Shown one piece after another: positions 249 through 35,384 of a stretch of DNA of 63,177 nucleotides. Location: the NCBI GenBank assembly GCA_023247445.1, contig JAHFGL010000009.1, positions 1 to 63,177 on the forward strand, in the 5' to 3' direction. Every line of letters starts with the position of its first letter. Position 1 is the first letter of the stretch. A program made the translations under genes and the position numbers. The notes beneath the pieces are model-generated. The model worked only from the letters and a program-made list of their open reading frames with translations, was not told the origin of the DNA and searched no databases. Source of the DNA: Candidatus Omnitrophota bacterium (lineage in GTDB: Bacteria; Omnitrophota; Gorgyraeia; Zapsychrales; Zapsychraceae).

Positions 249-1643
249 TTATCGACCATTGTCTGAAATATCATATTTCTTCATTTTATTATAAAGTGTT
301 GTCCTATTAATCCCTAATGCGGCGGCGGCTTTATTACGGTTCCAATTATTATTTTTTAAAACAGAAATAATATGTTCTTTTTCCGGCTGTTCCACAATTC
401 TTTTTAATGTCTTTTCATCTGATACTGGAGTAGCTGACACCGCAGAAAATTTAGCCAGGTTTGGAATATCCCACTTATTAATGATTTCTGTCCTGGCCAT
501 AATAACAGCCCCTTCAATCGCATTTTCTAATTCGCGAATATTCCCCGGCCAATTGTAATCCATAAACATTCGATGAACTTCATCAGCAATACCTTTAATC
601 TTTTTATTATTAATTTGGTTATAAGAATTAATAAAATATTGGACCAATCGCTCAATATCTTCTTTACGCTCTCTTAAGGGCGGCATTTGTATCGCAATAA
701 CATTAATCCGATAATAAAGATCTTCTCGAAATTCTCCTTTTTCAACCAAATCTGTTAATACACGGTTGGTGGCAACAATGATTCTCGCCTCAGCTTTTCG
801 CGTCACATTGTCTCCCACACATTCATAAACACCATCTTGAAGAACACGTAACAACTTAACCTGGAGCCCTGGAGAAAAGGCATCAATTTCATCCAAGAAA
901 ATTGACCCTCCCTTGGCATATTCAAATCTGCCTTCCTTATCTTTAATGGCTCCTGTAAAAGCGCCCTTCACATGACCAAACAACTCACTTTCCAAAAGAG
1001 TTTCTGATAGCGCACCGCAGCTAATCTCAACAAAAGGCTTATCTTTTCTATTCTTATCACACTCATGAATCGCACGCGCCACCAAACCCTTCCCCGTTCC
1101 GCTTTCTCCTGTAATCAGAATAGTGGCATTGGTACTCGCAACAGAGTCAATGATATGATAAACACTCTGCATTTTTGTACTTGCGCCGATCATTTTGCCA
1201 AATGAACTACGCCTTTCTTTAGCAATGATTTCTTTTAATGATTCATTTTCCTCGATTATTCTGTTTCGCTCAACAATTTTAGCAATGATAAATTTTATTT
1301 CGTTATCATTGATTGGTTTTGTCACATAATCGAAAGCTCCGTTTTTCATCGCTTCAACAGCTGTTTCAATTGAGCCATAACCAGTGATTACAATAATCTC
1401 TGTTTCTTTAGAATCTTTCTTAATTTTTGTCAATAACTCTATCCCATTCATTTTGGGAAGCTTTAAGTCAGTGAGCACAATATCAATCTTATTGTTCTTC
1501 ACAATTTCCGTAGCTTCTTCTCCGCTACTAGCCATTTGCACGCGATAGCCCTCAATGCGTAAAATTTCATAGAGAGACTGACGAATAAGTGGTTCGTCAT
1601 CGACAATTAAAATTTGAAATTTTTTTCGCTCGCCCTTAACCAT
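249..1643 (-). CDS. sigma-54-dependent response regulator (NtrC family; PrsR-like by context)
   Basis: Receiver domain (ILIVDDEP...VLTDLKLPKMNG). AAA+ sigma-54 interaction module with Walker A GESGTGKG and GAFTGA loop. C-terminal Fis-type HTH (AAAALGINRTTLYNKMKKY). Confidence 0.93.
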   Translation of the reverse strand: MVKGERKKFQILIVDDEPLIRQSLYEILRIEGYRVQMASSGEEATEIVKNNKIDIVLTDLKLPKMNGIELLTKIKKDSKETEIIVITGYGSIETAVEAMKNGAFDYVTKPINDNEIKFIIAKIVERNRIIEENESLKEIIAKERRSSFGKMIGASTKMQSVYHIIDSVASTNATILITGESGTGKGLVARAIHECDKNRKDKPFVEISCGALSETLLESELFGHVKGAFTGAIKDKEGRFEYAKGGSIFLDEIDAFSPGLQVKLLRVLQDGVYECVGDNVTRKAEARIIVATNRVLTDLVEKGEFREDLYYRINVIAIQMPPLRERKEDIERLVQYFINSYNQINNKKIKGIADEVHRMFMDYNWPGNIRELENAIEGAVIMARTEIINKWDIPNLAKFSAVSATPVSDEKTLKRIVEQPEKEHIISVLKNNNWNRNKAAAALGINRTTLYNKMKKYDISDNGR

Positions 1644-1645
1644 AA

Positions 1646-2938
1646 TTATCTTTCAACCGGGATTCTAATAGTAAATGTTGATCCCTTACCCAGATGGCTT
1701 TCTAAATCAATTTTGCCATCATAGCTCTTAATAACCTCACCAACAATCGTTAAACCCAAACCACACCCCTTATCCATATCTTTAGTTGTAAAAAATGGTT
1801 CAAAAATCTTATCCACCAATTCGGGAGGAATTCCAACACCTGTATCACTAACAACAATGGTTAACATTGGGCTTTCATAACCAGCTTTAATGGTCAGCTC
1901 CCCACCCTCTCCCATCGAATCGATCGCATTTCGGATAATATTCGTCAGAATCCGCTCCAGCCCTAAGTCACGGATGGAGGGAATATTGTCATCAATAATT
2001 TTCTTAACATGGATATTCTTATAACTTAAATCTGTTTTAACACTGCCCAAAGAATGTTCTAACGATTGTTTAAAATAAACTTTTTCTTTATTTAACGCCT
2101 CGTTACGGGAACAGGCTAAGAGATTCTTAACAATATTGGCCATACGGTTGAGCCCGTGTTTGATCTCCAACAAATATCCTCGGATAACATCATCATCTTT
2201 CGTTAACTCAACACATAAATTCGTATACCGCATGACACCATCTAATGGATTGTTAAACTCATGGGCGATCCCACCAGCAAGCTTCCCAATCGTAGCTAAT
2301 TTTTCTTGAATAATAATTCTTTTTTTAAGATGCTCAGCCTCTTGATCACTTTGGCCTAATTTATCTTTAAGGCCTTGTGTTTCTTTAACAATTTTCTTAA
2401 ATTTCTGATAAAGCTGAATACGTCTATAATTTAGGGCAATTTGAGTTGATAAGAAATCAAGCAATTGCATCTCATCTTTATTAAATTTATGCCCAGATTC
2501 TTTGTCTGTAATATTAATAACGCCAATTAATTTATCTTTGATAAGAAGCGGGGCACAAATAAACGAAGATGTTCGGTAGCTTTTCCGTGATTTGAGATTT
2601 CCAAAACGACCATCCTTAGAAATATCTTCAACGACAATGGGTTTTTTTAGTTGCGCGACTTGACCAACAATGCCGTGTCCCATGCGCTTGACCATGCTTG
2701 CTTCTTCTTGTGGTCCCATGCCGCGGGCAATACGCAGGGTTAGATTCTGTTCATCATCATCTAGGATAAAGATGGAGCCTCGGGTGGCTTCAAACAAATC
2801 CATGGTTTCCTTAAGCGAGACTTCCAGCAAATCCTCTAAACCAATGGTTATATTAACAGCTGAACAGATGTCACTAATTTTCTGAAAAAAAACGCTTTGG
2901 GATAATTCTCCAACGGATGACTTACTTTTGAGATTCAT
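1646..2938 (-). CDS. GAF-domain sensor histidine kinase, apparently soluble
   Basis: GAF-like N-terminal half. H-box [11 protein letters not shown]. HATPase_c motifs (RNAIDSM, DTGVGI, GCGLGL). No obvious TM helix. Adjacent to the response regulator (2-nt gap). Confidence 0.9.
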
Positions 2939-3824
2939 TCTCGTTTTTCGTCGCTTCGTCCACGTTCTGCTTCTTTAATTCTTTAATTTTTTCGATAACC
3001 TCTGTTAACGGTTCATTAAATGGGTGGTCTGGATAAGTTTTTATAAATTTTTCATAAATAGAAATGGGCAAATCAAAATTTCCCATATTCTTAATTGATA
3101 CCGTATTAATGGCCTTTACAATATTTCCCGTGTTACGGGGATCAGGATATTTAATAAGCAAATCTCCAAAAGTATTAACCGCATCAGACCAACGCTTTTT
3201 GGCCATATAGCAAGTAGCTAAAAGTCTCAAAGAATTATATTCCACTAAAGATTTTGGGTATTGATTGATCATTTTTCGATAATAGTCAATGGCGCTGGCG
3301 AGGGCAACCTTGGCTTGTTCCGTATTCTTTTGATCCATATGGAATTTAGCAATCAAAATAGGGACATGAAGACCCAACCCAGATAAAGGATAATCTTGTT
3401 CGATCCTATGATAGGTTTTTAAAATATTAACGGGATCTTTCTCTAAGGTATAACTGCGTACAATTTCAGATAATGCTTCTAGCCCGACGGGATTTTCCTT
3501 AGAATAATTATTAACAATCGACTCAAATTTTTCTCTGGCTCCCTTATAATCTTCTCGAACCATAGAAATGCGTCCCAAAAATAAGTGGGCAAGAGGAACC
3601 AACTGTGAATTTGGGAACCGCTCAATGAATCGTTTATATTCATCGGTTACCTGCTTATAAGTCGCTGGGGGGGCTGCTTTTGGATCAGCAATGATAGTTT
3701 TAAATTGTTGATTAATTTTCCACATCGCCTTTTCAGCAGGATATTCTCCATTAATATCAAGAAAAGATAAAATAGCGAAAACACTGATCAATATTACTAT
3801 GTAAGCATAAATAATTTTTTTCAT
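2922..3824 (-). CDS. TPR-repeat protein with N-terminal signal anchor
   Basis: N-terminal hydrophobic helix followed by repeated TPR-like A/Y/L-spaced helices. ATGA overlap with the upstream gene and overlap with the kinase gene indicate an operon. Confidence 0.6.
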   Translation of the reverse strand: MKKIIYAYIVILISVFAILSFLDINGEYPAEKAMWKINQQFKTIIADPKAAPPATYKQVTDEYKRFIERFPNSQLVPLAHLFLGRISMVREDYKGAREKFESIVNNYSKENPVGLEALSEIVRSYTLEKDPVNILKTYHRIEQDYPLSGLGLHVPILIAKFHMDQKNTEQAKVALASAIDYYRKMINQYPKSLVEYNSLRLLATCYMAKKRWSDAVNTFGDLLIKYPDPRNTGNIVKAINTVSIKNMGNFDLPISIYEKFIKTYPDHPFNEPLTEVIEKIKELKKQNVDEATKNENESQK

Positions 3825-4696
3825 TTACGTTCCCTAACTGAAAGATAATACGTGGCCAAAGAAGCATAGATGATAGCATCCACAAAGACGATTACAAAAA
3901 TGCTTAAAACAAGAACTAAAACTTTTAATTCAGGCAACAAGCTCTCTAAGTTAAGACTATTACGCAACAAAAGCACTGGCACATATAAAAGCGTTGGGAC
4001 AAAAGCTATCCAAAATGAGAACCAAAATGAACCCTTGAGAATTTTGAAACTTTGAATAATAGCAGTAAAAACCTTCTTTTTTTCAATGACAATAATAGGA
4101 ACAACATAGGCAAAAAGGGCGGTGACAAAGACACTGAAAATAAGATTACAATAAGGTGCCCCTCCGATAACAAGTGTCTTGATGACAAAGAAAATCCCTG
4201 TGGTTGATTGGATCTTCATAGCACGATTTAAAAACAATCCATAAAATTTAAAAAACAACATAACAACTAAAAATGAAAGTATAGCAGCTAAGGCAATGTG
4301 GACATACGAAGAAATGGTTTCCCTAAAAATAGACTTGGTCTGATCTTTTTTATCACTGACAATAGCGTACAACTTAGCAATAGATAATGCGATACAAAAA
4401 CTATTGATAAGAATATAAATACCCATTTCGGCATATTGAAAAAGTTTTGGCAACAAGATAAAATTAAGGGGGTAATGCAGGTATGCCTCTGACCAAAGCG
4501 TACGAATAATCGGTGCAAAAAAGATATTAAGTGGATATCGGGGAGCAAAATAAAGGATCTCTAATGACAAAAGTTGAATAAAGATAACAAAGGTAAATGG
4601 AAACAAAATTTCCTTATGGCTCATAAGGGTGTTAACAGCTGCCCTAATTGTCCCAATTACTCTTCGCTTAGGTTTTTGATCTTCTATATTATCCAT
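3821..4696 (-). CDS. polytopic membrane protein, unknown function
   Basis: 291 aa with at least 6 hydrophobic helices. No recognisable catalytic motif. ATG start; first gene after the 4.8 kb terminator. Confidence 0.55.
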   Translation of the reverse strand: MDNIEDQKPKRRVIGTIRAAVNTLMSHKEILFPFTFVIFIQLLSLEILYFAPRYPLNIFFAPIIRTLWSEAYLHYPLNFILLPKLFQYAEMGIYILINSFCIALSIAKLYAIVSDKKDQTKSIFRETISSYVHIALAAILSFLVVMLFFKFYGLFLNRAMKIQSTTGIFFVIKTLVIGGAPYCNLIFSVFVTALFAYVVPIIVIEKKKVFTAIIQSFKILKGSFWFSFWIAFVPTLLYVPVLLLRNSLNLESLLPELKVLVLVLSIFVIVFVDAIIYASLATYYLSVRERK

Positions 4697-5004: not shown

Positions 5005-5715
5005 TTATTTCTTCTTGTTACGGATAAATCCTAATAAACCACTTCCCACTCCAAATAAAATCATGCTGGCTGGTTCAGGAACAGGTGAAGCAGCTGGAAC
5101 ATCGGGAATAGGATTTGCACTTCTAAAAATGACATAATTACCATCGCTGCTTGAGTTAATGTCAAAAGTATCGTGCCAAATAAAATTTGCACTTGGATCG
5201 ATTCCAGAAATGCTACCCCAGGTCGATAATGCATTCGCATCAGCTCCAGGAATACTCCATGTTGCTCCAGAAATATCAGCAGCAACGGTTCCTAGGGAAG
5301 GAACGGCTCCTGATGGGCCTGGGTTAGGATTCGTTGAAACATAATATAACCAATCCACGGAATTAGTATGGATAACCGATGCGTCTGGAAGTATAAAGTC
5401 TCCAATGATCATTTGTTGCTGTTCATCATCCCAAGCTAAAAGGTAAAGATAATTTCCACCCGGTGCATCAAAAATATAACTTTCGGGTTCTTCCCAATTT
5501 AGGGTTCCCGGAGTCGATCCAGGAGTTCCAACTTCATTACGGCCAATAAAGGTCAGCCCGGTTCCATCAAGCGCCCCATAATAAAGGCCATAATGGTTGT
5601 CGGCTGTTAATGTGGCAGTAACAGAGGCTTCTGCTTTTTGAGAGCCATAGCTCATCACTACCGCAGCCAACGCTAAAATTGTTAAAATTGTTTTTTTCAC
5701 TTTTTCTCCTCCCAT
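5005..5715 (-). CDS. PEP-CTERM sorting-domain secreted protein
   Basis: Signal peptide, and C-terminus VPEPASMILFGVGSGLLGFIRNKKK (PEP + TM helix + basic tail). A GTG at 5700 preceded by GGAGGAG is a plausible alternative start. Confidence 0.85.
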   Translation of the reverse strand: MGGEKVKKTILTILALAAVVMSYGSQKAEASVTATLTADNHYGLYYGALDGTGLTFIGRNEVGTPGSTPGTLNWEEPESYIFDAPGGNYLYLLAWDDEQQQMIIGDFILPDASVIHTNSVDWLYYVSTNPNPGPSGAVPSLGTVAADISGATWSIPGADANALSTWGSISGIDPSANFIWHDTFDINSSSDGNYVIFRSANPIPDVPAASPVPEPASMILFGVGSGLLGFIRNKKK

Positions 5716-5735: not shown

Positions 5736-6431
5736 TTATTTCTTTTTTCGAATACCTAAAACCCCTAATAAACCGCTTCCTAGAAGCATCATTGAAGCTG
5801 GTTCAGGAACAGCACCAGCATTAGCACCAAGATTGCCATCTATCAAAATATTATCCACACGTCCTTCATCACCATTACCGTCATTTAGCCAAAAAGCAAT
5901 CCAAATACTTGATTGTCCACCAGGTAACGTTAAAGTTTGGTTGGTAAAACTTCCGGCCGTTCCTAAAGCAAAGCCTGTCCAATTAGTAAAATTAGCTGGA
6001 TCAACTGGGGATGTTAAATCAATCGTTCGAAAAGCATCAAAACCACTGATCGTACCTACAAAATAGCCGTAAGTAAATGTATCCCCTGATTCTGTCCCAT
6101 TAGTTCTCCAATCGAAACTTAATAATGCATCGACATAGCCGACCGTGCTGATGTTATATAGAATTCCGGCATCATCTTCAAAGCTAGCATATTGATCGGT
6201 AGAAGAACCTTGACTTTGCACATTAATATCGGCAGATGTTGCTCCAGCACCTGTTTGAAATCGAGCGCCAAACCAATCATTATCTGCACCATTGGTAATA
6301 GTTGGAACTCCAACCGTAGTCCCGCTTCCCGTATTAAAATCTTCCTGCAGTAAAATAACAGCTTCTGCTTTCGTATTAAGCATCAGAACAACTGTTAAAA
6401 TTCCAACAACTGTAAGTAATTTTTTCATCAT
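5736..6431 (-). CDS. PEP-CTERM sorting-domain secreted protein
   Basis: Signal peptide MMKKLLTVVGILTVVLMLNTKAEA. C-terminus VPEPASMMLLGSGLLGVLGIRKKK. Confidence 0.85.
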   Translation of the reverse strand: MMKKLLTVVGILTVVLMLNTKAEAVILLQEDFNTGSGTTVGVPTITNGADNDWFGARFQTGAGATSADINVQSQGSSTDQYASFEDDAGILYNISTVGYVDALLSFDWRTNGTESGDTFTYGYFVGTISGFDAFRTIDLTSPVDPANFTNWTGFALGTAGSFTNQTLTLPGGQSSIWIAFWLNDGNGDEGRVDNILIDGNLGANAGAVPEPASMMLLGSGLLGVLGIRKKK

Positions 6432-6432
6432 T

Positions 6433-7278
6433 TTACCTAGCTCCCTCTCCCGTTAATATTACTCTTATTGTTCTTAATGTAATATTTATATCAGACCACA
6501 AACACATCTTCTTTATATAGAGAAGATCGTATTTGAGTTTCTTTTTGACATCTTCAATGGTTTCATCATAACGGTGCCAAACTTGAGCTAAACCTGTGAT
6601 ACCTGGCTTTATAGATAATCTTTCTTCATATCCTGGAATAGCTTCTTTAAATTGGGTAACAAATACTGGTCTTTCAGGGCGTGGGCCAATTAGACTCATA
6701 TCACCTTTAAATACATTGATTATTTGTGGAAGTTCGTCAATATGGGCTTTTCTTAAAAACCCACCAATGGAGGTCAAACGATTATCGTTAGCAGCCGCCC
6801 AAACAGGACCAGTCTCTTTTTCAGCATCAATTTTCATCGTACGAAACTTATAAATCTCAAAATGTTTTCCATCTTTCCCAACACGTGTTTGAGAGTAAAG
6901 AATCGGCCCTTTTGAGGTTAACTTGACTAATAAAGCCGTTAATAAAATTACGGGAGAAGCAATAATACATAAAACAACAGAACTAATCATATCCAAAATT
7001 CGTTTAGTTACTGCATAGGTCTTTCGTACAAAGCTTATAACCATCCCGAAAAGTCCACTACCAAAAAGGGCCATGGTTGTGGGTTCTGGAGCTCTGGCTT
7101 TAGACTTGTGATCTATTTCAGACGGAATGTCTGATTTTTTTGCTAATTCAACCTGATGATTGGCATCTTCTGGCTTTACAAAGGAAACCGTAGCCCAAGC
7201 AGCACCAGTTAATCCACCAATTAGGATAGATACCATAATAATAAAGGCAATTTTGGTTTTAAAATTTTCTAGCTTCAT
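6433..7278 (-). CDS. polyprenyl-phosphate sugar phosphotransferase (bacterial sugar transferase, WbaP/EpsB type) with an internal PEP-CTERM-like segment
   Basis: Catalytic core PILYSQTRVGKDGKHFEIYKFRTM...DELPQ...GDMSLIGPRPERP. The track ORF begins at a TTG (7452). The ATG at 7278 is preferred because a sigma-54 promoter lies at 7324-7339 inside the extension. No clear SD precedes 7278. Confidence 0.85.
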   Translation of the reverse strand: MKLENFKTKIAFIIMVSILIGGLTGAAWATVSFVKPEDANHQVELAKKSDIPSEIDHKSKARAPEPTTMALFGSGLFGMVISFVRKTYAVTKRILDMISSVVLCIIASPVILLTALLVKLTSKGPILYSQTRVGKDGKHFEIYKFRTMKIDAEKETGPVWAAANDNRLTSIGGFLRKAHIDELPQIINVFKGDMSLIGPRPERPVFVTQFKEAIPGYEERLSIKPGITGLAQVWHRYDETIEDVKKKLKYDLLYIKKMCLWSDINITLRTIRVILTGEGAR

Positions 7279-7323
7279 AAAATTAGATTGTTTGATTTTG
7301 TTGTAAAGCACATTGAATTTAAT

Positions 7324-7339
7324 AGCAAGATGCGTACCA
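7324..7339 (-). promoter_or_regulatory. sigma-54 (-24/-12) promoter
   Basis: Minus strand reads TGGTAC-GCATC-TTGCT against consensus TGGCAC-N5-TTGCW, with the correct 10-nt GG-to-GC spacing. It lies about 45 nt upstream of the ATG at 7278. Confidence 0.6.
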
Positions 7340-7559
7340 ACTTGTGCCAATAAAAAATATTTTTCTATAAAACCATAACATGTTGAAATTAATATGGTTA
7401 AATGATTATAAAATTTAAAATACATAGGACATACTAGGACAAAACTGTACAACCTATGACAACCCCACCCTAAACCCTGTTGATATTTGTAAACATGTTG
7501 TTGCTATCAATGAACATATATAATCATTATTATATACTGTTAATCTTTTAGAAAATTTC

Positions 7560-8216
7560 TCAGGGAAGATATTTAGAAAGATACGGCAAGATAACCGCAG
7601 AAAACTCCTGAAGCTCCTTCTCTGTTGCCTTTTGATCTTGATTACTAATAGAAGCTGAAACGCGAATCAAAGCACTACTAGACGGCTTTCCAAGCAATGA
7701 TTTAAAGGCAATTAAAATCTGCTGCTTCCAGTAGTTTGGTGTAAACGAATCCCCCACCTTAAACCAATAAAAAGCTAGCTGCCGAAAATTATCCTTTTCT
7801 AAAAGCAAACTATCTACATCAATCGACTGCACCGGAGCGGATGGCTCAAGAGATACTGGCCCTTGAATCTGACTAGGCTTTTTAGTCAGAAGCGTCATAC
7901 CTGACCCGGTATAACAAATTTCCGGTGGATGGGAAACTTTTCTATTACTTTGTGAGTAAACAATAAACAAATAGACTTCCTTGCCTGATGGCGTTGAATA
8001 TTTCCGCGTAAAGGCGTTTTTGGTCTCAAGGATCGCATACTCAACACTTGTTAAAGGGATCTCTTTGGAGCTCCATTCTCCGATCGTCGTTGGGAATTTA
8101 TGAATACTAACGGTATCCTGCTGTGAATACATTTTAAAATAAAAATTCCACGACACCGCGCAGGCCAAGAGCAGTAACGCCAAAATAATAAAGAATTTTT
8201 GTTGATCTTTTTTCAT
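7560..8216 (-). CDS. epsI: EpsI-family exosortase-associated protein
   Basis: About 218 aa with a single N-terminal TM helix. ATGA overlap directly downstream of the exosortase gene, which is the typical EpsI size and position. Confidence 0.7.
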   Translation of the reverse strand: MKKDQQKFFIILALLLLACAVSWNFYFKMYSQQDTVSIHKFPTTIGEWSSKEIPLTSVEYAILETKNAFTRKYSTPSGKEVYLFIVYSQSNRKVSHPPEICYTGSGMTLLTKKPSQIQGPVSLEPSAPVQSIDVDSLLLEKDNFRQLAFYWFKVGDSFTPNYWKQQILIAFKSLLGKPSSSALIRVSASISNQDQKATEKELQEFSAVILPYLSKYLP

Positions 8217-9058
8217 TCGAGTAATTTTGCAACCGCAAATAGTAAAATAAAGGCTAAGCCAAAAACCATAAATCCAGAAAAATCGTGAACAAGTCCAGTG
8301 GCGTATTGAGATCCCCAGACCTCACTAATAAATGATAAAAACATAATACGGCAGACATTGGTAATAATCGCAATAGGAATCGTCGACAGAAAAAGTAAAG
8401 TACGTTTAAACATTGGCCCCTTCATCCAAAAGGCAAAAATGCTTCCTAGAGCTGTTAAAGAAATTAAAGACCGCAAACCGCTGCAGACGTCTTCGACAAC
8501 AACTTGGGAATGAAGCATTTTAATGACACTGCCCTCACGGATAGCGGGAATGCGCATGTGATTCAACAAAAACGTCGCAATTTGGGCGGCTAATAACTTT
8601 AATGTAAAACTGATGTTGGTAATAACAACCATCGGCAAGGGGAGCATAAAAAATAGAAACGCGATTGGAAATGCAATTTTCTTCAGTATCGCTTCACCAT
8701 AAAAATACAAAATGAGCCCCACAAAAACAATCATCATCGAGAATGCGGAAGAAAAATAAATACGAAAGAAAGAACTAAGCAAATAAAGTAACACACCGGC
8801 AATAATCCAGCGCATGCCCCAGACGGATTCTTGCGGTTTTATCTTAGCCAACTCATCTTTCATCTGCCAAATTAAATATCCCGTGACGAAAGGAATTAAA
8901 ATGCCGTGGCTATAATACGAATCGCGCGCAAACCAGCGATCCCACATCCATAGAAAGGTCGGCAAATAGGCCAAAAGAAAAACAATCGCAACAATTATTT
9001 GCTGAGAATATTGTTTCCAAATTTCGGCTGGTAAAATTTTTGTTGGATTAGAAGTCAT
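8213..9058 (-). CDS. exosortase (EpsH/Xrt family)
   Basis: About 8 TM helices. Conserved catalytic-type motifs EDVCSGLRSL (Cys and Arg), NVCRI and a late His (VHDFSGF). PEP-CTERM substrates are adjacent. Confidence 0.85.
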   Translation of the reverse strand: MTSNPTKILPAEIWKQYSQQIIVAIVFLLAYLPTFLWMWDRWFARDSYYSHGILIPFVTGYLIWQMKDELAKIKPQESVWGMRWIIAGVLLYLLSSFFRIYFSSAFSMMIVFVGLILYFYGEAILKKIAFPIAFLFFMLPLPMVVITNISFTLKLLAAQIATFLLNHMRIPAIREGSVIKMLHSQVVVEDVCSGLRSLISLTALGSIFAFWMKGPMFKRTLLFLSTIPIAIITNVCRIMFLSFISEVWGSQYATGLVHDFSGFMVFGLAFILLFAVAKLLE

Positions 9059-9099: not shown

Positions 9100-11673
9100 C
9101 TATCGACTAATCTTAAAATCATCAATCCAAAACTGATCGCCGTTGACTGCATTTTGCTGCGTATAAAATTCAAAGGCTGAAAGCTTCTCAAGGCTGGGCA
9201 AAACACTTTTGACGGCGACACCAATGTCGTCGGTCATCTCATGCCACTGTCCATCATCATTTAACACAAATATTTTTTGCGAAGGCGTGCCAGCACAACG
9301 ATAAGAAACAGTTCCACCGATACAAATCCAATCACCAAATTGTGTTTTTACACGCATGCCAACCGGTGTTCCTTTTGGGATAAAATAGGCGAAGCTTAAA
9401 TGAGAATGACTATTAATATCCCATCCATCAAAATCAACACCGGCCGATAATGCCGCGGACTCAAATTTGCTTTGAATCTGGAGTGCATTACCATTTAAAT
9501 AAACCTGACTGGAACTACTTTCCAAATTGGCATCTCCCTGACTTTTAAAACGGCCCATCGAGGAATCAAAACCTTCAAAATAAAAGATGTCCGGTTTACT
9601 ACTCACCGTCTTATTTTCATCCAACTCAGCTGGAATTGTTTTCTGTTTTAAACCATCAATAATATACGCAAGATAATGCCCGCTATTACGATAATTTTGA
9701 TTAAAATGTTTTCGTTTAGACAAATAAGCTTCTTTGACACCACGGTTAAAAACTTGCTGGCTAATTTGCAGATAATCTTGATTTTGATAACCGCTCAGAC
9801 GATAGGCATACCCAAGACCATGAACAATCAAAAGATTTAAATCAGGCTCGCCAGCAGAATCTCTATTTATGTCCGCAGTTGTATAACGAAAAGAATCTCC
9901 CGTTGAGACAAGCGCCTCTTTAATTAGCCAATCAACAGCACGAAAAATAGAATCAGCCGCTATGTCACTTGCTGTTAATTGATGATATTTAATGATCGCT
10001 TCAAGCAAAAGTCCCGTCATAAAAGGTGATCCACCGTATTCATCAGGCCGCGCCCCTTCTTCTGGGTCATGCGCGTACAAATTATGAATAAATCCTCCCC
10101 GCGATGGCCACTGCAATTGTGTTTTATAAAGGTTCTCCATAAATTCACCAGCTAATTTTACTGACTCTTTATTTTGCGTTAATTCATAATAATTCAATTG
10201 CTCCAACATTAAAAAGGCCATCAACCGCTCGGTAAAAAATCTTTTTTCATCTTTGGGATAAAAAGCCTTGTCTGGTTTCATATAGTTTCTTAAATATTCT
10301 GCCATGTAACCAGCCACTGTTAATGATTTTGGATCGCCCGTTAACAAATAATCATCTTCCATCGTTTCAATATAAACGTAGCGCGGATCAGTTTGCGTTG
10401 CACTGCGACCGCTGTTTTCGCCTTCTTGAACAATCTCACTATCGCGGTAATGCAAAAATTCTTTACGCGCGTCTAAAAAATATTTTAATTCACCGCTACG
10501 CGCATAAATCTGATAAAAGACATGTGGTGTTGAATAATAGCCGTCTTCACGCACATCTCCTGTCCATGGCTTATTCTTAACCTCATCATAATTTTTTAAG
10601 ATATTCTCATCATACCCATTAAACTCGATAAGCCCCATCGGAACTTGTTCTCCGATAACTTGAGAATCGCAAAGCCACTTGGCCGGCAATAAAATCCATC
10701 CTTCGGGATAATCCCAATTAGGTTCAATAATTGACAAATCTGTTGTTGAGCGCCTCGCCCCCCACTTAAGTGTTGCGTATTCATAAAGATGTTCGATGGG
10801 ATACTTAAACTGCACTAAAACCGATCGAATAGATTGGTCTTGCGGCCAAAGGGCGAGCACTTTTGTGGCGATAGGAATTTCATTTCCTTTGTCATCAACA
10901 ACCGTAAAATCATCTTTTGAGATTAATTGACCTGGCGCAAATGGAATCCCAGACGAAATTAATGGCTTATTTTCCATCACGTTTTTTAATCGCGCCAAGG
11001 CAATTTGTATTTCACCTTTTGTTTCGATAGGTTTTTTAGGTAACACAACGGCGTGACGAACGGGCAAAGGCGGAGCATTTTCTTCTTCTTGTTTCTTCTT
11101 TAATTTTTCTTCTCGAAGCCCAGCCACTAAACCTGATCGTTCCAGACGCATATTATCGAAATATAATTTATAACGCTTGGATGGTTCATTAATAAATAAA
11201 ACGATAAAACCAATGTGCTGGGCATCAATCTTTGACGCAATGTGTGAATACGCAATCTGTACTTTATTCAGACCCGGCTGCAGCGTGTAAGGAATATTAG
11301 TTTTTTGCTTGTTTATGTCGTCCAACCGAATGGTAAAACTGATCGCTTCTTTTTCTGAATTAAAAATATCTATGGCAAACGATTCATATTCACCCCAATT
11401 GTGATCAAATCGACGGGTATTAATGCTGGGCAATCCGCCTTTTGGAAAGACCGCTTCAAGGCTATGTTTCCCCTCTGTAACATGGTCACCAGATGTTTTT
11501 AAAGGAAAGTCTTCTTCTGGAGCGGTGGACCAAAGTCTCTTGTCCTCAAAATCACTAATGATATTTTTTTCTTTAAGACTATTTATCTTGGGCGGATGAT
11601 GGGTTAACTTTCGCAGAACAAACAAGCTCATCAAAACAAGAACTATGATAATAAAATATTTATTATTCTTCAT
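9100..11673 (-). CDS. large secreted/anchored protein, possible polysaccharide lyase/hydrolase-like
   Basis: 857 aa with an N-terminal signal anchor. Beta-sandwich-like N- and C-terminal modules. The segment SSGIPFAPGQLISKDDFTVVDDKGNEIPIATKVLALWPQDQSIRSVLVQF resembles the N-terminal barrel of PcRGLX-type lyases, followed by a helical core. Recognition is weak. Confidence 0.6.
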   Translation of the reverse strand: MKNNKYFIIIVLVLMSLFVLRKLTHHPPKINSLKEKNIISDFEDKRLWSTAPEEDFPLKTSGDHVTEGKHSLEAVFPKGGLPSINTRRFDHNWGEYESFAIDIFNSEKEAISFTIRLDDINKQKTNIPYTLQPGLNKVQIAYSHIASKIDAQHIGFIVLFINEPSKRYKLYFDNMRLERSGLVAGLREEKLKKKQEEENAPPLPVRHAVVLPKKPIETKGEIQIALARLKNVMENKPLISSGIPFAPGQLISKDDFTVVDDKGNEIPIATKVLALWPQDQSIRSVLVQFKYPIEHLYEYATLKWGARRSTTDLSIIEPNWDYPEGWILLPAKWLCDSQVIGEQVPMGLIEFNGYDENILKNYDEVKNKPWTGDVREDGYYSTPHVFYQIYARSGELKYFLDARKEFLHYRDSEIVQEGENSGRSATQTDPRYVYIETMEDDYLLTGDPKSLTVAGYMAEYLRNYMKPDKAFYPKDEKRFFTERLMAFLMLEQLNYYELTQNKESVKLAGEFMENLYKTQLQWPSRGGFIHNLYAHDPEEGARPDEYGGSPFMTGLLLEAIIKYHQLTASDIAADSIFRAVDWLIKEALVSTGDSFRYTTADINRDSAGEPDLNLLIVHGLGYAYRLSGYQNQDYLQISQQVFNRGVKEAYLSKRKHFNQNYRNSGHYLAYIIDGLKQKTIPAELDENKTVSSKPDIFYFEGFDSSMGRFKSQGDANLESSSSQVYLNGNALQIQSKFESAALSAGVDFDGWDINSHSHLSFAYFIPKGTPVGMRVKTQFGDWICIGGTVSYRCAGTPSQKIFVLNDDGQWHEMTDDIGVAVKSVLPSLEKLSAFEFYTQQNAVNGDQFWIDDFKISR

Positions 11674-11764: not shown

Positions 11765-12856
11765 CTATAAACTCTCAATAATGTAATTCCGATACTGGTC
11801 GGGCGCGCCGGACTCTCCCGCCTCCGCGGCTTTGATAACGTTGTACATTTCACGCGCGCTAACATAATGCAAAATAAAATTCTGGCCATCATTATATTTC
11901 TTCTCTATATAAGAGTACATTTGATCCATCGCTTCACCTAAAAGGACATTGGCATTATGTTCCGGCGCGCCGTGTGTATGAACTTTAATAAAAATCCAAT
12001 CAGGTTTGCCACGAACGGCAATCCGTTGTTTAACCCACAAATCAACCCGATTTGCTGTCGGTAAATTTCCAGAACCAACATCGGCATTTTCAATCCGTGG
12101 GAAAATCCCATATTTACGATTGCGCCAATTAAGCGTCAGCGGCCCTTGAATAATCATCAAATCCGCATTAGTAAATTTTCCAACCTCAACATCAACCCCT
12201 TGATTATGTGTTTTTGGTTTAGAAGGTTGCGAGCTGGTGTAATAGATACTATTAATTTTCTTAGGTTGGGTATCGCTGGGAGCTGAGGGAAACGTAAAAT
12301 CCGCGTAACATCCGGCATCATTTAAAATATGCGATTCATGGTTGACGCCGCACCAACGCCGATCGGGACGGGAATTGTTGAGCGCCCAATTGCCGTGAAT
12401 AAAACCAAACCGAATCTGCCCAGACAAATTTCGTTTGCTCAGCAGTCCATGACTTGAAAAATCTTTCTTCGCCTTTTCTAACTTCTCTCTTAAACCCTCT
12501 TCTGTATCATTGTCATGATGCAAGTGAACCTCTAGTTCGCCAAATCCTTGTTTGCACAACTTTGCTAGCAAATCCAAATTTTCTTTCCTGTAGACTTCCG
12601 CTGGATAAAAAAACGAATGGCGCGGATGTTGCCCATCGGCATCTTTGTGTTTATTGGCTAATTTGGGATAATCATCAACCCAACGTTTGACGCGACTAAT
12701 TTGAGTTGCCGCATCGGCGCCCTTCCAATCCGGTTCAAAATGATCAACGACAGAAAACATAACGTGCGTCGGCTTTGGGAATGCTTCCTTAGAAAGCAAA
12801 CGCCGCAACTCTTGCTTTAAATAACTTCCCATCCACAAATGAATATTTTTGGTCAT
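11765..12856 (-). CDS. hypothetical protein, possibly polysaccharide deacetylase-like metalloenzyme
   Basis: 363 aa with His/Asp-rich motifs (VVDHFEP, VHLHHDND, FIHGNWA, KVHTHGAPEH). Assignment is tentative. Confidence 0.6.
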   Translation of the reverse strand: MTKNIHLWMGSYLKQELRRLLSKEAFPKPTHVMFSVVDHFEPDWKGADAATQISRVKRWVDDYPKLANKHKDADGQHPRHSFFYPAEVYRKENLDLLAKLCKQGFGELEVHLHHDNDTEEGLREKLEKAKKDFSSHGLLSKRNLSGQIRFGFIHGNWALNNSRPDRRWCGVNHESHILNDAGCYADFTFPSAPSDTQPKKINSIYYTSSQPSKPKTHNQGVDVEVGKFTNADLMIIQGPLTLNWRNRKYGIFPRIENADVGSGNLPTANRVDLWVKQRIAVRGKPDWIFIKVHTHGAPEHNANVLLGEAMDQMYSYIEKKYNDGQNFILHYVSAREMYNVIKAAEAGESGAPDQYRNYIIESL

Positions 12857-12966: not shown

Positions 12967-13755
12967 TTACTTATTTTTTCTTCGAAAATAAGCTAATCCT
13001 AAAAGACCAGAATTTAACAAAATCAGTGTGGTGGGTTCAGGAACTGGAGAAGATGGAGGAACCTCAACTGGCAAAAGCGAAGCACCCCATGCATTGCCTG
13101 CCATTCCTGTTATAGGCCGAAAGATTGAACTAGATCCATTTAGTAAATTAATGGAGATAATATTTTTTCGTGTAAAACCAAACATCGTATCATCAACGTA
13201 GGTAAGCCCATACAATTGCCCAAAACTAGTGTTTCCAATAAGTGTTCCGGCGCCTGTATTTGGATTAACCTGGACAATAGAATCAGTCGCTCCACGAGAA
13301 GCCATAAACATAGTTCCATTACCATCAAATTCGAGATCTCCAGATGAATTTCTTCCCATATTGCCGACGGCTGTTGCTGCCCCAGTTGTTGTATTTACAG
13401 CATAAAGAAGAGGCGAATTCCAGCCAGCGGTAAAAAGCGATCCATCAGGAGCAAAAATTAAGGCATTAGCACTATTAATAGATCCTAGGCTTCCCACCAA
13501 AGTACTGGCTGCCGTATTTTTATCAATTCTATACAAGGAATCAAATGTAACACCCCAAAGATTACCATTTAAATCAAACGCAATATCTGTCATGGCTGAA
13601 CCGGAATTTCCAACAAGGGTTGCAACACCTGTATCGGTCTCAACAGAATAAATACCTGCTAAGTGATCACCGACGTACACGGTGGCCGCATTTGATAAAG
13701 ATGAGCCTCCGATTGTCAGTAGAATTACAAACAATGAAAATATTTTCCGTCTCAT
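12967..13755 (-). CDS. PEP-CTERM sorting-domain protein with beta-propeller-like repeats
   Basis: Signal peptide, repeated G/T/S-rich blades, and C-terminus VPEPTTLILLNSGLLGLAYFRRKNK. Confidence 0.85.
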   Translation of the reverse strand: MRRKIFSLFVILLTIGGSSLSNAATVYVGDHLAGIYSVETDTGVATLVGNSGSAMTDIAFDLNGNLWGVTFDSLYRIDKNTAASTLVGSLGSINSANALIFAPDGSLFTAGWNSPLLYAVNTTTGAATAVGNMGRNSSGDLEFDGNGTMFMASRGATDSIVQVNPNTGAGTLIGNTSFGQLYGLTYVDDTMFGFTRKNIISINLLNGSSSIFRPITGMAGNAWGASLLPVEVPPSSPVPEPTTLILLNSGLLGLAYFRRKNK

Positions 13756-33880: not shown

Positions 33881-34732
33881 TTAAAATCCACCCGTGTATA
33901 CGGTTCGTGCTGTACCGGCCGCTGTTCCAACTGGGGTTGCGACTGGTTGTATGACACGCATCGCTTTTGCCATAAGTGTCGGCGGAACATATAATGTGTC
34001 GCCTGGTTTCATAACTAAATTTTCTCTTAAATCTCCTTCAATGAGTAATTTATGGATATTGACATTGCGCTGAGCAGCCTTGCCACTCATCGATGGTGTA
34101 ATCAAACTCCCTTTGGGTGTATTAGCACTTAATAGAGGTAACCCCGATTGCACTAGTGCTTCGCGGACAGTGATTGTGTCACCACGCATATAAATTTTTC
34201 CTGGGCCAGCAACTTCGCCAATAACATAAACAACTTTGCTATTATAGCCTGAAATTTTAATCGTAACATCGGGAGATATGATATATTTTGACAATAATTT
34301 TTTGACAATTTCTGTGGTTTCTTTCTTAGTCTTTCCAACCAAAGGAACATCGCCTACAAATTCATATTGAATATTTCCTTCATTATTAATCGCGTATTGT
34401 CCTGTTAACTCTGGATGACGAGCTACCGCAATATCAATCACATCATTAATACCAAAAGTGTAGGTACTTGGAGTTTCTAAACTGTTGTTAGCCATCGCTA
34501 AGTTATTAGGAATGCCTGCTTCAGCTAAAATTTTATCTGGGTCAATTTCTTCGGAGGTTGTTTTAACAGATGAAACGGTGTCATCTTGAACGGATGTTTC
34601 TGCGGCTGTCTCTGACACTAATTGATTTGGATTAGTGTTGGCATAATTTTGCGCGCTAGCAACACTTAATGGCAAACACAGCAGACCTACAATAATTATT
34701 AGTCTTAGTAATGTTAATCTTTTCATTTTCAA
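33881..34732 (-). CDS. Wza-type polysaccharide export protein
   Basis: Signal peptide, Poly_export-like YTFGINDVIDIAV and an SLBB-like segment (PGKIYMRGDTITVREAL). The track start is a TTG; the ATG at 34726 is an alternative. Confidence 0.85.
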   Translation of the reverse strand: MKMKRLTLLRLIIIVGLLCLPLSVASAQNYANTNPNQLVSETAAETSVQDDTVSSVKTTSEEIDPDKILAEAGIPNNLAMANNSLETPSTYTFGINDVIDIAVARHPELTGQYAINNEGNIQYEFVGDVPLVGKTKKETTEIVKKLLSKYIISPDVTIKISGYNSKVVYVIGEVAGPGKIYMRGDTITVREALVQSGLPLLSANTPKGSLITPSMSGKAAQRNVNIHKLLIEGDLRENLVMKPGDTLYVPPTLMAKAMRVIQPVATPVGTAAGTARTVYTGGF

Positions 34733-34955: not shown

Positions 34956-35040
34956 TTGGCCTTCCTCCTTATTATATGTAATGCTTACGATTTTTTTCTT
35001 TTTATTCCATTTTCATCGAAAACGGATACCATTTTAAGAA

Positions 35041-35055
35041 GCAATTACCATGCCA
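35041..35055 (-). promoter_or_regulatory. sigma-54 (-24/-12) promoter of the export/EPS operon
   Basis: Minus strand reads TGGCAT-GGTAA-TTGCT against consensus TGGCAC-N5-TTGCW. It lies about 86 nt upstream of the GTG at 34955. Confidence 0.65.
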
Positions 35056-35384
35056 TCTATTAAAATGGCAAAATTAAATTTATCTAAGAAGCAGTAAATA
35101 GTTACAGATAAACAACTTACACAAAACAATGTTAAACCTGTCAAACTCTTTCGAGACAAAGCAGACATGGGATGATGTTTAAAAGAATGAACAGCTTTGT
35201 CTGGGACACACCAGGACAATCACGGAAAACACACTCTATCAACAAGTTAAACATATGTCGAGTTTTATCATCAAATAACCGAATCTTTATCATTGGTAGG
35301 GCCGCCAACTTTTTACATGGTCTGGCGGGTTGCGCATCAGAAAAAAATTTGGCAATTATCAATAGTATGGTATACTTTTTGCGT

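What the first reader, a model, noticed from the sequence alone, without database searches (positions are those of the whole stretch)
6433..7278. PEP-CTERM-type sorting signal embedded inside the priming sugar phosphotransferase
The protein starts with a TM helix (IAFIIMVSILIGGLTGAAWA) and a ~45-aa hydrophilic linker. Next comes APEPTTMALFGSGLFGMVISFVRK, which is P-E-P, a hydrophobic helix and basic residues. That matches the architecture of the genuine C-terminal signals in this window: VPEPASMILFGVGSGLLGFIRNKKK, VPEPASMMLLGSGLLGVLGIRKKK and VPEPTTLILLNSGLLGLAYFRRKNK. Here the signal is not C-terminal; a complete bacterial sugar-transferase catalytic domain follows it. The predicted topology puts the PEP motif at the outer membrane face, as in true substrates. 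The gene lies between the substrates and EpsI/exosortase. The exosortase might dock on, or cleave, the enzyme that primes glycan synthesis. That would give a physical link between protein sorting and EPS initiation. I am not aware of this arrangement having been described.
Basis: partly seen in the sequence, partly recalled or inferred. Interest (0 to 1): 0.7.

Follow-up and report, generated by a model that had tools for sequence, protein, structure and literature searches.

The report
Sorting signal inside a glycan-priming enzyme
The enzyme that starts exopolysaccharide synthesis in this gene cluster carries, in front of its catalytic part, a complete and strongly conserved copy of the tag that normally ends proteins handled by the neighbouring exosortase, which suggests that sugar-chain initiation and protein sorting are physically coupled.

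Summary
Window 6433-7278 (minus strand) encodes a 281-aa protein with four parts: a Sec-type signal or first membrane helix (1-29), a 34-aa variable spacer, a PEP + membrane helix + basic segment (64-86), and a PglC-like small monotopic phosphoglycosyl transferase (about 90-281). The PEP segment passes the curated cut-offs of both PEP-CTERM models. It is not a chance match. All 120 closest homologues, mostly Candidatus Omnitrophota, keep it: 117 have PEP and 3 have SEP. It is about as conserved as the catalytic domain, and its invariant residues use all synonymous codons. Synteny is also conserved: exosortase, EpsI, this gene, then a PEP-CTERM substrate, with a sigma-54 promoter upstream. More distant relatives, including Elusimicrobiota, have the same layout with gapless spacing. 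Some carry 130-245-aa cargo-type domains before the PEP, one of them a choice-of-anchor N domain. A sister clade in exosortase loci lacks the PEP, so the motif is not obligatory. My best reading is that the priming enzyme is a client of the exosortase and is probably cleaved at PEP. Docking without cleavage, or a plain membrane anchor, remain possible. I found no description of this arrangement in the literature searched. I rate it a new variant of a known kind.

The parts
7324..7339 (-). Candidate sigma-54 (-24/-12) promoter, TGGTACGCATCTTGCT, 46-61 nt upstream of the start codon
   Evidence: It has one mismatch to TGGCAC-N5-TTGCW. TGGCAY-N5-TTGCT lies at the equivalent place upstream of the orthologous gene in 15 of 16 Omnitrophota-type loci. 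The total number of matches in the window is not above chance, so the support comes from position and conservation.
6433..7278 (-). Gene for the 281-aa fusion protein: signal peptide, spacer, PEP-CTERM-type signal, small monotopic phosphoglycosyl transferase
   Evidence: It is the only Bac_transf gene in the 63-kb window.
7192..7278 (-). Residues 1-29: basic n-region, hydrophobic core, and an A-W-A motif. This is a Sec signal peptide or first transmembrane helix.
   Evidence: Sequence. A29 is at least 90% conserved and the family consensus is TAWAT.SFVKP.D. Distant relatives also have AxA sites such as AQA|Y and GFA|V. Cleavage was not tested.
7090..7191 (-). Residues 30-63: variable, charged, predicted-disordered periplasmic spacer. 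Relatives have a 130-245-aa domain at this position.
   Evidence: Mean column entropy is 2.94 bits. pLDDT is below 50 for residues 31-72. Relatives are described.
7021..7089 (-). Residues 64-86: PEP motif, an 18-residue hydrophobic helix (TTMALFGSGLFGMVISFV), then R-K. This is the PEP-CTERM-type signal.
   Evidence: PF07589 scores 24.0 bits against a 20.7 cut-off, and TIGR02595 scores 17.6 against 16. E65 and P66 are invariant and P64 is at least 90% conserved in 89 sequences.
6916..7020 (-). Residues 87-121: basic connector (TYAVTKR) and the re-entrant membrane helix with its S108-P109 break
   Evidence: PglC (8g1n, 8e37) aligns from query residue 91. The AF2 helices break at residues 106/108. 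Y88, K92, D96 and P109 are invariant. The PEP-to-KRxxD spacing is constant and gapless across 18 diverse fusions.
6436..6915 (-). Residues 122-281: cytoplasmic catalytic domain with the D181-E182 dyad and P199-R200-P201
   Evidence: PF02397, E = 2e-66. PDB matches to WbaP and PglC, E about 1e-33. Invariant residues are listed.
5736..6431 (-). Genuine PEP-CTERM substrate gene. It starts 1 nt after the transferase stop codon and is probably co-transcribed.
   Evidence: PF07589 scores 31.9 bits at residues 207-230 of 231.
5005..5715 (-). Second genuine PEP-CTERM substrate gene
   Evidence: PF07589 scores 26.8 bits at the C-terminus.
7560..8216 (-). EpsI (DUF3485), the exosortase-associated protein
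   Evidence: TIGR02914 scores 96.2 bits against a 42.8 cut-off; PF11984 E = 2e-33.
8213..9058 (-). Exosortase with C192, R196 and H258, all invariant in 16 orthologues. It falls below the cut-off of every named Xrt subtype model.
   Evidence: PF09721 E = 8e-69. TIGR02602 scores 177 against a 105.6 cut-off. XrtA scores 183.8 against a 208 cut-off.
12967..13755 (-). Third genuine PEP-CTERM substrate gene (DUF6923 domain)
2922..4696 (-). A 291-aa protein with no family match (3821-4696) and a 300-aa TPR protein (2922-3824). This pair lies downstream of the PGT-family gene in most related loci examined, including Elusimicrobiota-type ones.
249..2938 (-). GAF histidine kinase (1646-2938) and sigma-54-dependent response regulator (249-1643). 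These are the likely regulators of the promoter.
   Evidence: Both are conserved in the orthologous loci.

Best explanation
SHOWN. The gene encodes a conserved natural fusion with five parts in order. They are a Sec-type signal sequence, a short variable periplasmic spacer, a full PEP-CTERM-type exosortase recognition signal (PEP, one transmembrane helix, basic residues), a 7-9-residue basic connector of fixed length, and a PglC-like small monotopic phosphoglycosyl transferase (PGT). It is the only Bac_transf PGT in this Wzx/Wzy exopolysaccharide locus. It sits directly downstream of the exosortase and EpsI genes. It is the first gene of a unit, preceded by a conserved sigma-54-type promoter motif, whose next genes encode genuine PEP-CTERM substrates; co-transcription is inferred from the 1-nt and 20-nt gaps. 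INFERRED. The signal sequence takes the N-terminus across the membrane. The PEP motif then lies at the periplasmic face, the helix spans the membrane, and the connector, re-entrant helix and catalytic domain lie on the cytoplasmic side. This is the geometry of a normal exosortase substrate. The exosortase therefore engages the priming enzyme through this helix. Most likely it cleaves at or near PEP. That would remove a roughly 4-kDa N-terminal peptide (in relatives, a whole cargo domain) and leave a 24-kDa PGT whose new N-terminal helix is born in, and may stay at, the exosortase. The effect would be to place or licence the first step of glycan synthesis at the site where PEP-CTERM proteins are processed, under the same sigma-54 control.
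For: The signal passes both curated PEP-CTERM thresholds. It is kept in 120 of 120 homologues (117 PEP, 3 SEP) and in 17 of 17 species-level genome loci whose match extends into the transferase. It is about as conserved as the catalytic domain, while the spacer is free to vary, and selection acts at the protein level. The order exosortase, EpsI, this gene holds in all 13 genome-collection loci (L008-L016, L018-L021) and all 4 look-up loci with enough upstream DNA; L008 and L010 repeat the loci L003 and L001, so about 15 are distinct. Topology: PglC aligns from residue 91, so residues 1-85 are an addition to a complete small PGT. Net charge is +4 for the connector and 0 for the spacer. Relatives in other 50%-identity clusters have the same layout with gapless PEP-to-KRxxD spacing. 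Several have a clear AxA signal peptide plus a 130-245-aa extracytoplasmic domain. P0128 carries a choice-of-anchor N domain (53.8 bits against a 40 cut-off) and has two full-length homologues. At least 16 clusters of about 480 aa share a 'YVVDG...HWTMQCGND' domain. If these domains behave like stand-alone PEP-CTERM cargo, they can reach the surface only if the signal is cleaved. The P0128 locus also holds exosortase, EpsI and PEP-CTERM genes, and its embedded signal is 61-62% identical to the local genuine signals. Lineages whose genuine signals read PEPG also read PEPG in the transferase (5 of 5 loci, against 2 of 17). The sigma-54 promoter is conserved in 15 of 16 loci.
Against: A sister clade of about 293-aa transferases sits in a locus with exosortase, EpsI and canonical VPEP substrates. 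It keeps two N-terminal helices and the RKRF..KR..D connector but has no PEP. The motif is therefore dispensable for at least some exosortase-locus PGTs. The embedded signal differs systematically from the genuine ones: A rather than V before PEP, T at +2, ALFG rather than LLLG. It is also far more uniform, which may mean a specialised, non-cleaved interaction or constraint from the transferase itself. A locus-level permutation test for co-variation with genuine signals gave nothing (0.382 against 0.378, p = 0.36), and the PEPG association rests on few independent lineages. The Elusimicrobiota-type loci show no exosortase within the 5-10 kb of flanking DNA retrieved on each side. The 33-residue spacer of the window's family has no evident function as cargo.
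Confidence: 0.42

Rival explanations
1. Docking without cleavage. The embedded signal is a pseudo-substrate that holds the priming enzyme on the exosortase/EpsI complex, or tunes exosortase activity by occupying its substrate site. The N-terminal piece stays attached.
For: The signal is much more uniform than genuine signals and has its own fixed differences. Its spacing to the re-entrant helix is rigid and the connector residues R85, Y88, K92 and R93 are conserved. The motif AWAT.SFVKP.D just after the first helix is conserved, which is more than a signal-peptidase site needs. Synteny and the promoter evidence are the same as for the best explanation.
Against: Every feature known to define a substrate is present, and nothing visible in the sequence would block cleavage. 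Relatives carry cargo-type domains that would be useless if permanently tethered to a cytoplasmic-face enzyme. The conservation could instead reflect the helix's later life as part of the mature transferase.
Confidence: 0.25
2. Anchor only. The segment is an evolutionary relic of a gene fusion between a small PEP-CTERM gene and the downstream transferase. Today the helix only sets topology or anchors the enzyme, and the exosortase does not act on it.
For: The sister clade works in exosortase loci with an N-terminal helix pair and no PEP. P0456 has a degenerate PEL. PEP-CTERM genes and the transferase are neighbours in every locus, so read-through fusion is easy to imagine. The spacer is unconstrained.
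Against: A relic motif should decay. Here E65 and P66 are invariant and P64 is at least 90% conserved in 89 sequences at 59-71% overall identity, with synonymous codon turnover. PEP is also invariant in 18 sequences from distant clusters at 34-63% identity. A plain anchor does not need Pro-Glu-Pro at the membrane edge.
Confidence: 0.18
3. Artefact. The motif is a chance match, or the gene is really two genes (a small PEP-CTERM ORF plus a transferase) joined by a sequencing error, or translation starts downstream of the motif.
For: The HMM scores are only just above threshold. The database copy of this protein was called with a different start and is 330 aa long.
Against: The reading frame is continuous in 120 homologues from independent samples and in 17 genome loci. 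Homologues begin at the position of ATG 7278, a conserved sigma-54-type promoter motif lies 46-61 nt upstream of it, and the motif region shows protein-level conservation, so translation does not start downstream of the motif. The PglC alignment shows that residues 87-93 already belong to the transferase.
Confidence: 0.01

Closest known systems
PEP-CTERM / exosortase (EpsH, XrtA-type) protein-sorting system (Haft et al. 2006, PMC1569441)
   Same: It has a PEP motif abutting a transmembrane helix followed by basic residues. It has an N-terminal signal sequence. It is encoded beside an exosortase and EpsI inside an EPS locus with a sigma-54 regulator pair and a TPR protein. Its scores are above the curated PEP-CTERM thresholds.
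   Different: [quoted passage not shown] Here 195 residues of a cytoplasmic-face enzyme follow it. The exosortase is below every named subtype cut-off, for example XrtA 183.8 against 208.
Small monotopic phosphoglycosyl transferases (Sm-PGT), e.g. Campylobacter PglC, PDB 8g1n/8e37
   Same: Residues 91-279 align to PglC residues 10-189 with E about 5e-33. The protein has a re-entrant helix with a Ser-Pro break, an Asp-Glu dyad and a PRP motif.
   Different: Sm-PGTs are defined as the catalytic core only (PMC10312794). This protein adds about 85 N-terminal residues with two membrane-spanning segments and a periplasmic loop.
TIGR03013 (EpsB_2) XrtA/PEP-CTERM-system glycosyltransferase and TIGR03025 EPS polyprenyl glycosylphosphotransferases (large PGTs)
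   Same: These are also priming transferases in exosortase-linked EPS loci. The catalytic half matches strongly. TIGR03025 is passed (304.6 against 295.55).
   Different: TIGR03013 scores 278 against a 393 cut-off, and only profile positions 251-443 are matched. The four-helix bundle and cytoplasmic accessory domain of the large enzymes are replaced by signal peptide, spacer and PEP-CTERM signal.
Bifunctional monoPGT fusions (Bi-PGTs) and partner-regulated PGTs (PMC10312794; PMC12802240)
   Same: In both, the priming enzyme is a control point that is fused to, or contacted by, another functional module.
   Different: The fused module here is a protein-sorting signal, with a cargo-type domain in relatives, and not an enzyme or regulatory domain. 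No paper in the searched library holds both 'PEP-CTERM' and 'phosphoglycosyl transferase'.
Sortase-like attachment of secreted proteins to glycans (type IX secretion cargo linked to A-LPS through a linking sugar, PMC7468200)
   Same: This is a functional analogy only. A C-terminal signal is removed and the protein is joined to a lipid-linked glycan, which shows a possible reason to couple a sorting enzyme to glycan priming.
   Different: The machinery is unrelated. No evidence here shows that exosortase uses a glycan acceptor.

Membership tests
PEP-CTERM sorting domain (TIGR02595 / PF07589) | Score at or above the curated model threshold | tested here: met
   PF07589 scores 24.0 against 20.7. 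TIGR02595 scores 17.6 against 16. Both match residues 63-86.
PEP-CTERM sorting domain (TIGR02595 / PF07589) | Pro-Glu-Pro directly abutting a hydrophobic helix, followed by a basic cluster | tested here: met
   P64-E65-P66, then 18 hydrophobic or small residues, then R85-K86 and K92-R93. The feature is conserved.
PEP-CTERM sorting domain (TIGR02595 / PF07589) | Located at the extreme C-terminus of the protein | tested here: not met
   195 residues follow the basic cluster. For this reason I do not file it as an ordinary PEP-CTERM protein.
PEP-CTERM sorting domain (TIGR02595 / PF07589) | N-terminal Sec signal peptide on the same protein | tested here: inconclusive
   An n-region, h-region and A-W-A c-region are seen by eye. 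A29 is at least 90% conserved, and AxA sites occur in distant relatives. No signal-peptide predictor was available.
PEP-CTERM sorting domain (TIGR02595 / PF07589) | Co-occurrence with an exosortase | tested here: met
   An adjacent exosortase and EpsI are present here and in all 17 Omnitrophota-type loci with upstream DNA (about 15 distinct). None was seen within the 5-10 kb of flanking DNA retrieved on each side in the Elusimicrobiota-type loci.
PEP-CTERM sorting domain (TIGR02595 / PF07589) | Removal of the signal by the exosortase | not testable with these tools
   This needs biochemistry or proteomics.
Monotopic phosphoglycosyl transferase superfamily (PF02397) | Bac_transf domain, re-entrant helix with Ser-Pro, and Asp-Glu dyad | tested here: met
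   PF02397 E = 2e-66. S108-P109, D181-E182 and P199-R200-P201 are present and invariant. PglC and WbaP structures match with E about 1e-33.
Small monoPGT (Sm-PGT) class | Catalytic core only, with no extra domains | tested here: not met
   About 85 extra N-terminal residues with two hydrophobic segments are present. The class definition is taken from PMC10312794.
TIGR03013 XrtA/PEP-CTERM-system glycosyltransferase (EpsB_2) | Full-length score above the curated cut-off | tested here: not met
   The score is 278.3 against 393.35, and only the C-terminal half of the model is matched.
TIGR03025 EPS polyprenyl glycosylphosphotransferase | Score above the curated cut-off | tested here: met
   The score is 304.6 against 295.55.
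Exosortase A (XrtA) system | Exosortase scoring above the XrtA cut-off | tested here: not met
   XrtA scores 183.8 against 208. The general exosortase model TIGR02602 is passed at 177.4 against 105.55. A kinase, sigma-54 regulator and TPR protein are present by domain content only.

The most novel reading that the evidence does not exclude
The embedded signal tethers the priming transferase to the exosortase so that the two form one membrane machine. The lipid-linked glycan started by this enzyme, after extension and possibly after deacetylation to expose an amine, would be the acceptor to which the exosortase transfers PEP-CTERM proteins. In relatives with cargo domains, each molecule would deliver a cargo together with the enzyme that primes its anchor. 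This would be the first mechanistic link explaining why exosortases live in EPS loci.
Probability: 0.12. Interest if true: 0.85.

Novelty: new variant of a known kind. Interest (0 to 1): 0.64.

Why it matters
Since 2006 the PEP-CTERM/exosortase system has been tied to exopolysaccharide loci by gene neighbourhood and co-occurrence only. What the exosortase attaches its clients to, and how sorting is coupled to glycan synthesis, remain open. A conserved family in which the glycan-initiating enzyme itself carries the exosortase recognition signal gives a concrete and testable physical link. It also yields a compact pair of proteins (281 aa each) for reconstituting exosortase recognition or cleavage. 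It is, to my knowledge, the first case of a 'C-terminal' tripartite sorting signal used internally with a cytoplasmic-face enzyme downstream. That matters for annotation, because such signals are normally searched for only at C-termini. It also adds a class to the small/large/bifunctional scheme of monotopic phosphoglycosyl transferases.

Tried and rejected
1. Complex model. I built 16 paired exosortase + GS-linker + transferase chimeras (alignment A3) as a stand-in for a multimer prediction. No docking model exists.

2. Profile search with the 82-column PEP-to-catalytic-start alignment A4. It returned almost only short fragments of ordinary transferases and said nothing about distribution.

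3. Locus-level co-variation between the embedded and genuine signals. Own-locus identity was 0.382 against 0.378 for other loci, with permutation p = 0.36. This gives no support at that resolution. Only the coarse PEPG against non-G split agrees (Fisher p = 0.0008), and that is not phylogenetically independent.

4. Chance match, frameshift or stop, or a downstream start. Rejected.

5. Homology of the PEP helix to a helix of large PGTs. Rejected. PglC and WbaP alignments begin at residues 84-91, and large-PGT models match only their C-terminal halves.

6. A second PGT in the window that would make this one accessory. None was found for the Bac_transf family. WecA-type enzymes were not seen in the genes annotated, but not every gene of the window was scanned.

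7. Literature. Searches combining PEP-CTERM or exosortase with sugar transferase, phosphoglycosyl transferase, priming or Omnitrophota found no description. Haft et al. 2012 could not be opened under the PMC id I tried.
Full report
THE OBSERVATION

On the minus strand, 6433-7278 encodes a 281-aa protein. Its parts, in order:
- Residues 1-9 are basic.
- Residues 10-29 (IAFIIMVSILIGGLTGAAWA) are hydrophobic and end in A-W-A.
- Residues 30-63 are charged. They are predicted disordered; pLDDT is below 50 for residues 31-72.
- Residues 64-66 are P-E-P.
- Residues 67-84 are a hydrophobic helix.
- Residues 85-86 are R-K.
- Residues 87-93 are a basic connector.

After the connector comes a complete bacterial sugar transferase.

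The segment 63-86 scores 24.0 bits on Pfam PEP-CTERM (cut-off 20.7) and 17.6 bits on TIGR02595 (cut-off 16). PF02397 covers residues 92-275 with E = 2e-66. A six-frame pattern scan of the whole window finds four PEP + helix + basic segments. Three end proteins (5005-5715, 5736-6431, 12967-13755) and the fourth is this internal one. The only error is the spacer length, which is 34 aa rather than about 45.

NOT CHANCE, NOT AN ARTEFACT

The 120 best database homologues are 60-74% identical, about 282 aa long, and where named are Candidatus Omnitrophota/Omnitrophica. All keep the segment: 117 have PEP and 3 have SEP.

Mean column entropy by region:
- PEP segment, residues 60-89: 0.88 bits
- Catalytic domain: 0.73 bits
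- Re-entrant helix: 1.56 bits
- Spacer: 2.94 bits

In an 89-sequence alignment E65 and P66 are invariant. A63, P64, T68, L71, F72, G73, G75, G78, M79, F83 and R85 are at least 90% conserved. Across 18 loci the invariant residues are written with all synonymous codons, so selection acts on the protein. The frame is open in every homologue and in 17 species-level genome loci.

A sigma-54-type promoter, TGGTACGCATCTTGCT, lies at 7324-7339, 46-61 nt upstream of ATG 7278. TGGCAY-N5-TTGCT is at the same place in 15 of 16 Omnitrophota-type loci. The 330-aa database call therefore starts too far upstream, and no start downstream of the motif is needed.

WHAT THE ENZYME PART IS

Campylobacter PglC (8g1n, 8e37) aligns to residues 91-279 and WbaP (8t53) to residues 84-280, both with E about 1e-33. 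The Ser-Pro break of the re-entrant helix (S108-P109), the Asp-Glu dyad (D181-E182) and PRP (199-201) are present and invariant.

The protein is thus a complete small monotopic phosphoglycosyl transferase with about 85 extra N-terminal residues. It passes TIGR03025 (304.6 against 295.55). It does not pass the XrtA-system transferase model TIGR03013 (278 against 393), and only the C-terminal half of that model is matched. It is the only Bac_transf gene in the window.

THE LOCUS

The stretch 249-34732 is a single minus-strand Wzx/Wzy-type EPS cluster. Its gene products, in order of transcription, are:
- Poly_export protein
- GNVR chain-length protein
- AAA_22 ATPase
- ParA/AAA_31 kinase-like protein
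- epimerase
- GT2
- Wzy
- Wzx
- several GT1/GT9 enzymes
- methyltransferases
- polysaccharide deacetylase
- UDP-GlcNAc 2-epimerase
- acyltransferase
- GT2
- a PEP-CTERM protein
- two large proteins with no clear family
- exosortase
- EpsI
- this transferase
- two PEP-CTERM proteins
- a 291-aa protein with no family match
- a TPR protein
- GAF histidine kinase
- sigma-54 response regulator

rpoN lies next door at 35172-36752 on the plus strand. A second good sigma-54 motif (35040-35055, minus strand) precedes the first gene of the cluster. The transferase stop (6433-6435) and the next PEP-CTERM gene's start (6431) are 1 nt apart. The priming enzyme and two substrates are therefore probably one sigma-54 operon.

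SYNTENY ELSEWHERE

Four look-up loci and 13 species-level genome loci with enough upstream DNA all show GT2, exosortase, EpsI, this gene. L008 and L010 repeat the loci L003 and L001, so about 15 of the 17 are distinct. Downstream usually come a PEP-CTERM protein, the 29x-aa protein with no family match, the TPR protein, the kinase and the sigma-54 regulator.

A WIDER CLADE

In a library clustered at 50% identity the whole Omnitrophota family collapses to one representative (P0049). Among the next 149 transferase representatives, 13 more have PEP + helix + basic residues directly before the re-entrant helix.

Eighteen diverse examples, at 34-63% identity, align without a single gap from PEP to the KRxxD start of the transferase, and PEP is invariant. 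This points to one ancient fusion with fixed geometry.

The N-terminal part varies widely:
- Some have short spacers.
- P0128 (458 aa) has a choice-of-anchor N domain (NF038141, 53.8 bits against a 40 cut-off). It has two full-length homologues, P0393 and P0394.
- At least 16 clusters of about 471-490 aa have an AxA signal peptide and a roughly 215-aa 'YVVDG...HWTMQCGND' domain before PEP.

These look like ordinary PEP-CTERM cargo. The P0128 locus also holds exosortase, EpsI and two PEP-CTERM genes whose signals are 61-62% identical to the embedded one. One member is labelled Elusimicrobiota (P0233) and L022 is an Elusimicrobia MAG. In the Elusimicrobiota-type loci examined, the 29x-aa protein and the TPR protein follow the transferase (except in L024). 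No exosortase lies within the 5-10 kb of flanking DNA retrieved on each side.

A QUALIFYING OBSERVATION

A sister clade of about 293 aa (P0447, P0443, P0453, P0459, P0467, P0479) keeps a first helix, a very short loop, a longer second helix and the RKRF..KR..D connector, but has no PEP. The P0447 locus nevertheless contains exosortase, EpsI and substrates ending in canonical VPEPASLLLLGSGLL. The PEP motif is therefore not a universal requirement for transferases of exosortase loci.

TOPOLOGY (INFERRED)

The re-entrant helix of monotopic transferases enters and leaves the cytoplasmic leaflet, and the catalytic domain is cytoplasmic. This is established for PglC and WbaP (PMC10312794). One helix (67-84) separates the connector (net charge +4) from PEP, and the spacer has net charge 0. 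PEP therefore lies at the periplasmic face, as in real substrates. The AF2 model (pLDDT 74) shows helices at 3-29, 69-106 and 108-121, but it cannot place the membrane.

MECHANISM

Shown: the architecture, its conservation, the synteny, the shared promoter, and the existence of cargo-bearing and PEP-less relatives.

Inferred: the exosortase recognises the embedded signal.

I favour cleavage (0.42) for three reasons. All known substrate determinants are present in the right orientation. Nothing in the sequence argues against processing. The cargo-type domains of relatives make sense only if they are released. Cleavage would leave a 24.2-kDa transferase with an N-terminal transmembrane helix at the exosortase.

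Docking without cleavage (0.25) is favoured by the unusual uniformity of the signal and its fixed differences from genuine signals. It is also favoured by the rigid connector and the unexplained conserved AWAT.SFVKP.D motif.

An anchor-only relic (0.18) is suggested by the PEP-less sister clade but fits poorly with invariant PEP across deep divergence.

My attempt to test co-variation with genuine signals was negative at locus level (p = 0.36). It was positive only for the coarse PEPG lineage split.

COMPARISON WITH WHAT IS KNOWN

Haft et al. 2006 state that PEP-CTERM occurs 'virtually without exception' near the C-terminus, and they list PF02397 transferases only as neighbours of EpsH. Haft's 2023 preprint treats all such signals as C-terminal. 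The monoPGT classification has small, large and bifunctional classes, and none of them is a sorting-signal fusion. No held paper contains both 'PEP-CTERM' and 'phosphoglycosyl transferase'. Precomputed Pfam annotations list PF07589 + PF02397 for about a quarter of family members, so databases already record the architecture silently.

VERDICT

This is a real, conserved and apparently undescribed variant of two known systems. The mechanism is plausible but untested.

Noticed in passing
window 7324-7339 (-) and 35040-35055 (-); rpoN at 35172-36752 (+): Two near-consensus sigma-54 promoter motifs sit in the right orientation. One is upstream of the transferase/PEP-CTERM operon and one is upstream of the first gene of the EPS cluster (Poly_export, 33881-34732). 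The sigma-54 gene itself is adjacent and divergent. The first motif is conserved in 15 of 16 related loci.
   Followed up: partly
window 8213-9058 (-): The exosortase passes the general exosortase models but falls below the cut-off of every named subtype: XrtA 183.8 against 208, XrtD 207 against 400, XrtW 187 against 425. It may represent an unnamed Omnitrophota subtype with a separate EpsI. The two genes overlap by 4 nt (8213-8216).
   Followed up: no
window 7171-7200 (-), residues 27-36 of the transferase: The motif AWAT[VL]SFVKP.D, straddling the predicted signal-peptidase site, is conserved across the family well beyond what an AxA site needs. It would form the N-terminus of the released or retained peptide. 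Its function is unknown.
   Followed up: partly
window 3821-4696 (-) and 2922-3824 (-): A 291-aa protein with no Pfam or NCBIfam match and a 300-aa TPR protein lie downstream of the PGT-family gene in most related loci examined. This includes Elusimicrobiota-type loci that show no nearby exosortase. The trio may be the conserved core of the system.
   Followed up: partly
L053 10001-10882 (protein P0447) and relatives P0443, P0453, P0459, P0467, P0479: A sister clade of exosortase-locus transferases has two N-terminal helices and the same basic connector but no PEP motif. The substrates in the same locus keep canonical VPEP signals.
   Followed up: partly
window 9100-11673 (-) and 11765-12856 (-): An 857-aa protein with only weak PcRGLX-like and GH127-like matches, and a 363-aa protein with no match, lie between the exosortase and a PEP-CTERM gene. 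Homologues occur at the same place in L018, L020 and L021. Other loci have GH123-like proteins there instead.
   Followed up: no
L009, L012, L014, L017, L018 ('uncultured Planctomycetales'), L015 ('Lysobacterales'), L023/L024 ('uncultured Clostridia'): Record titles of several MAGs that carry the family disagree with the Omnitrophota/Elusimicrobiota labels of their closest relatives. L015, for example, matches the PEP-to-catalytic-start query (A2) at 67% identity. These are probably provisional or mis-binned taxonomic labels, so the taxonomic breadth should not be read from titles alone.
   Followed up: no
window 6433-7452 (-), database protein P0001: The public gene call for this protein is 330 aa and starts at an ATG 49 codons upstream of ATG 7278. 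That start lies upstream of the conserved promoter motif, and homologues begin at the position of ATG 7278.
   Followed up: yes
P0270 (500 aa, same 90% cluster as P0145): A longer gene call joins an upstream segment ending in HEPGTVILFMFGFICVAW to the P0145-type fusion. This hints at either a tandem PEP-like element or a merged gene call.
   Followed up: no
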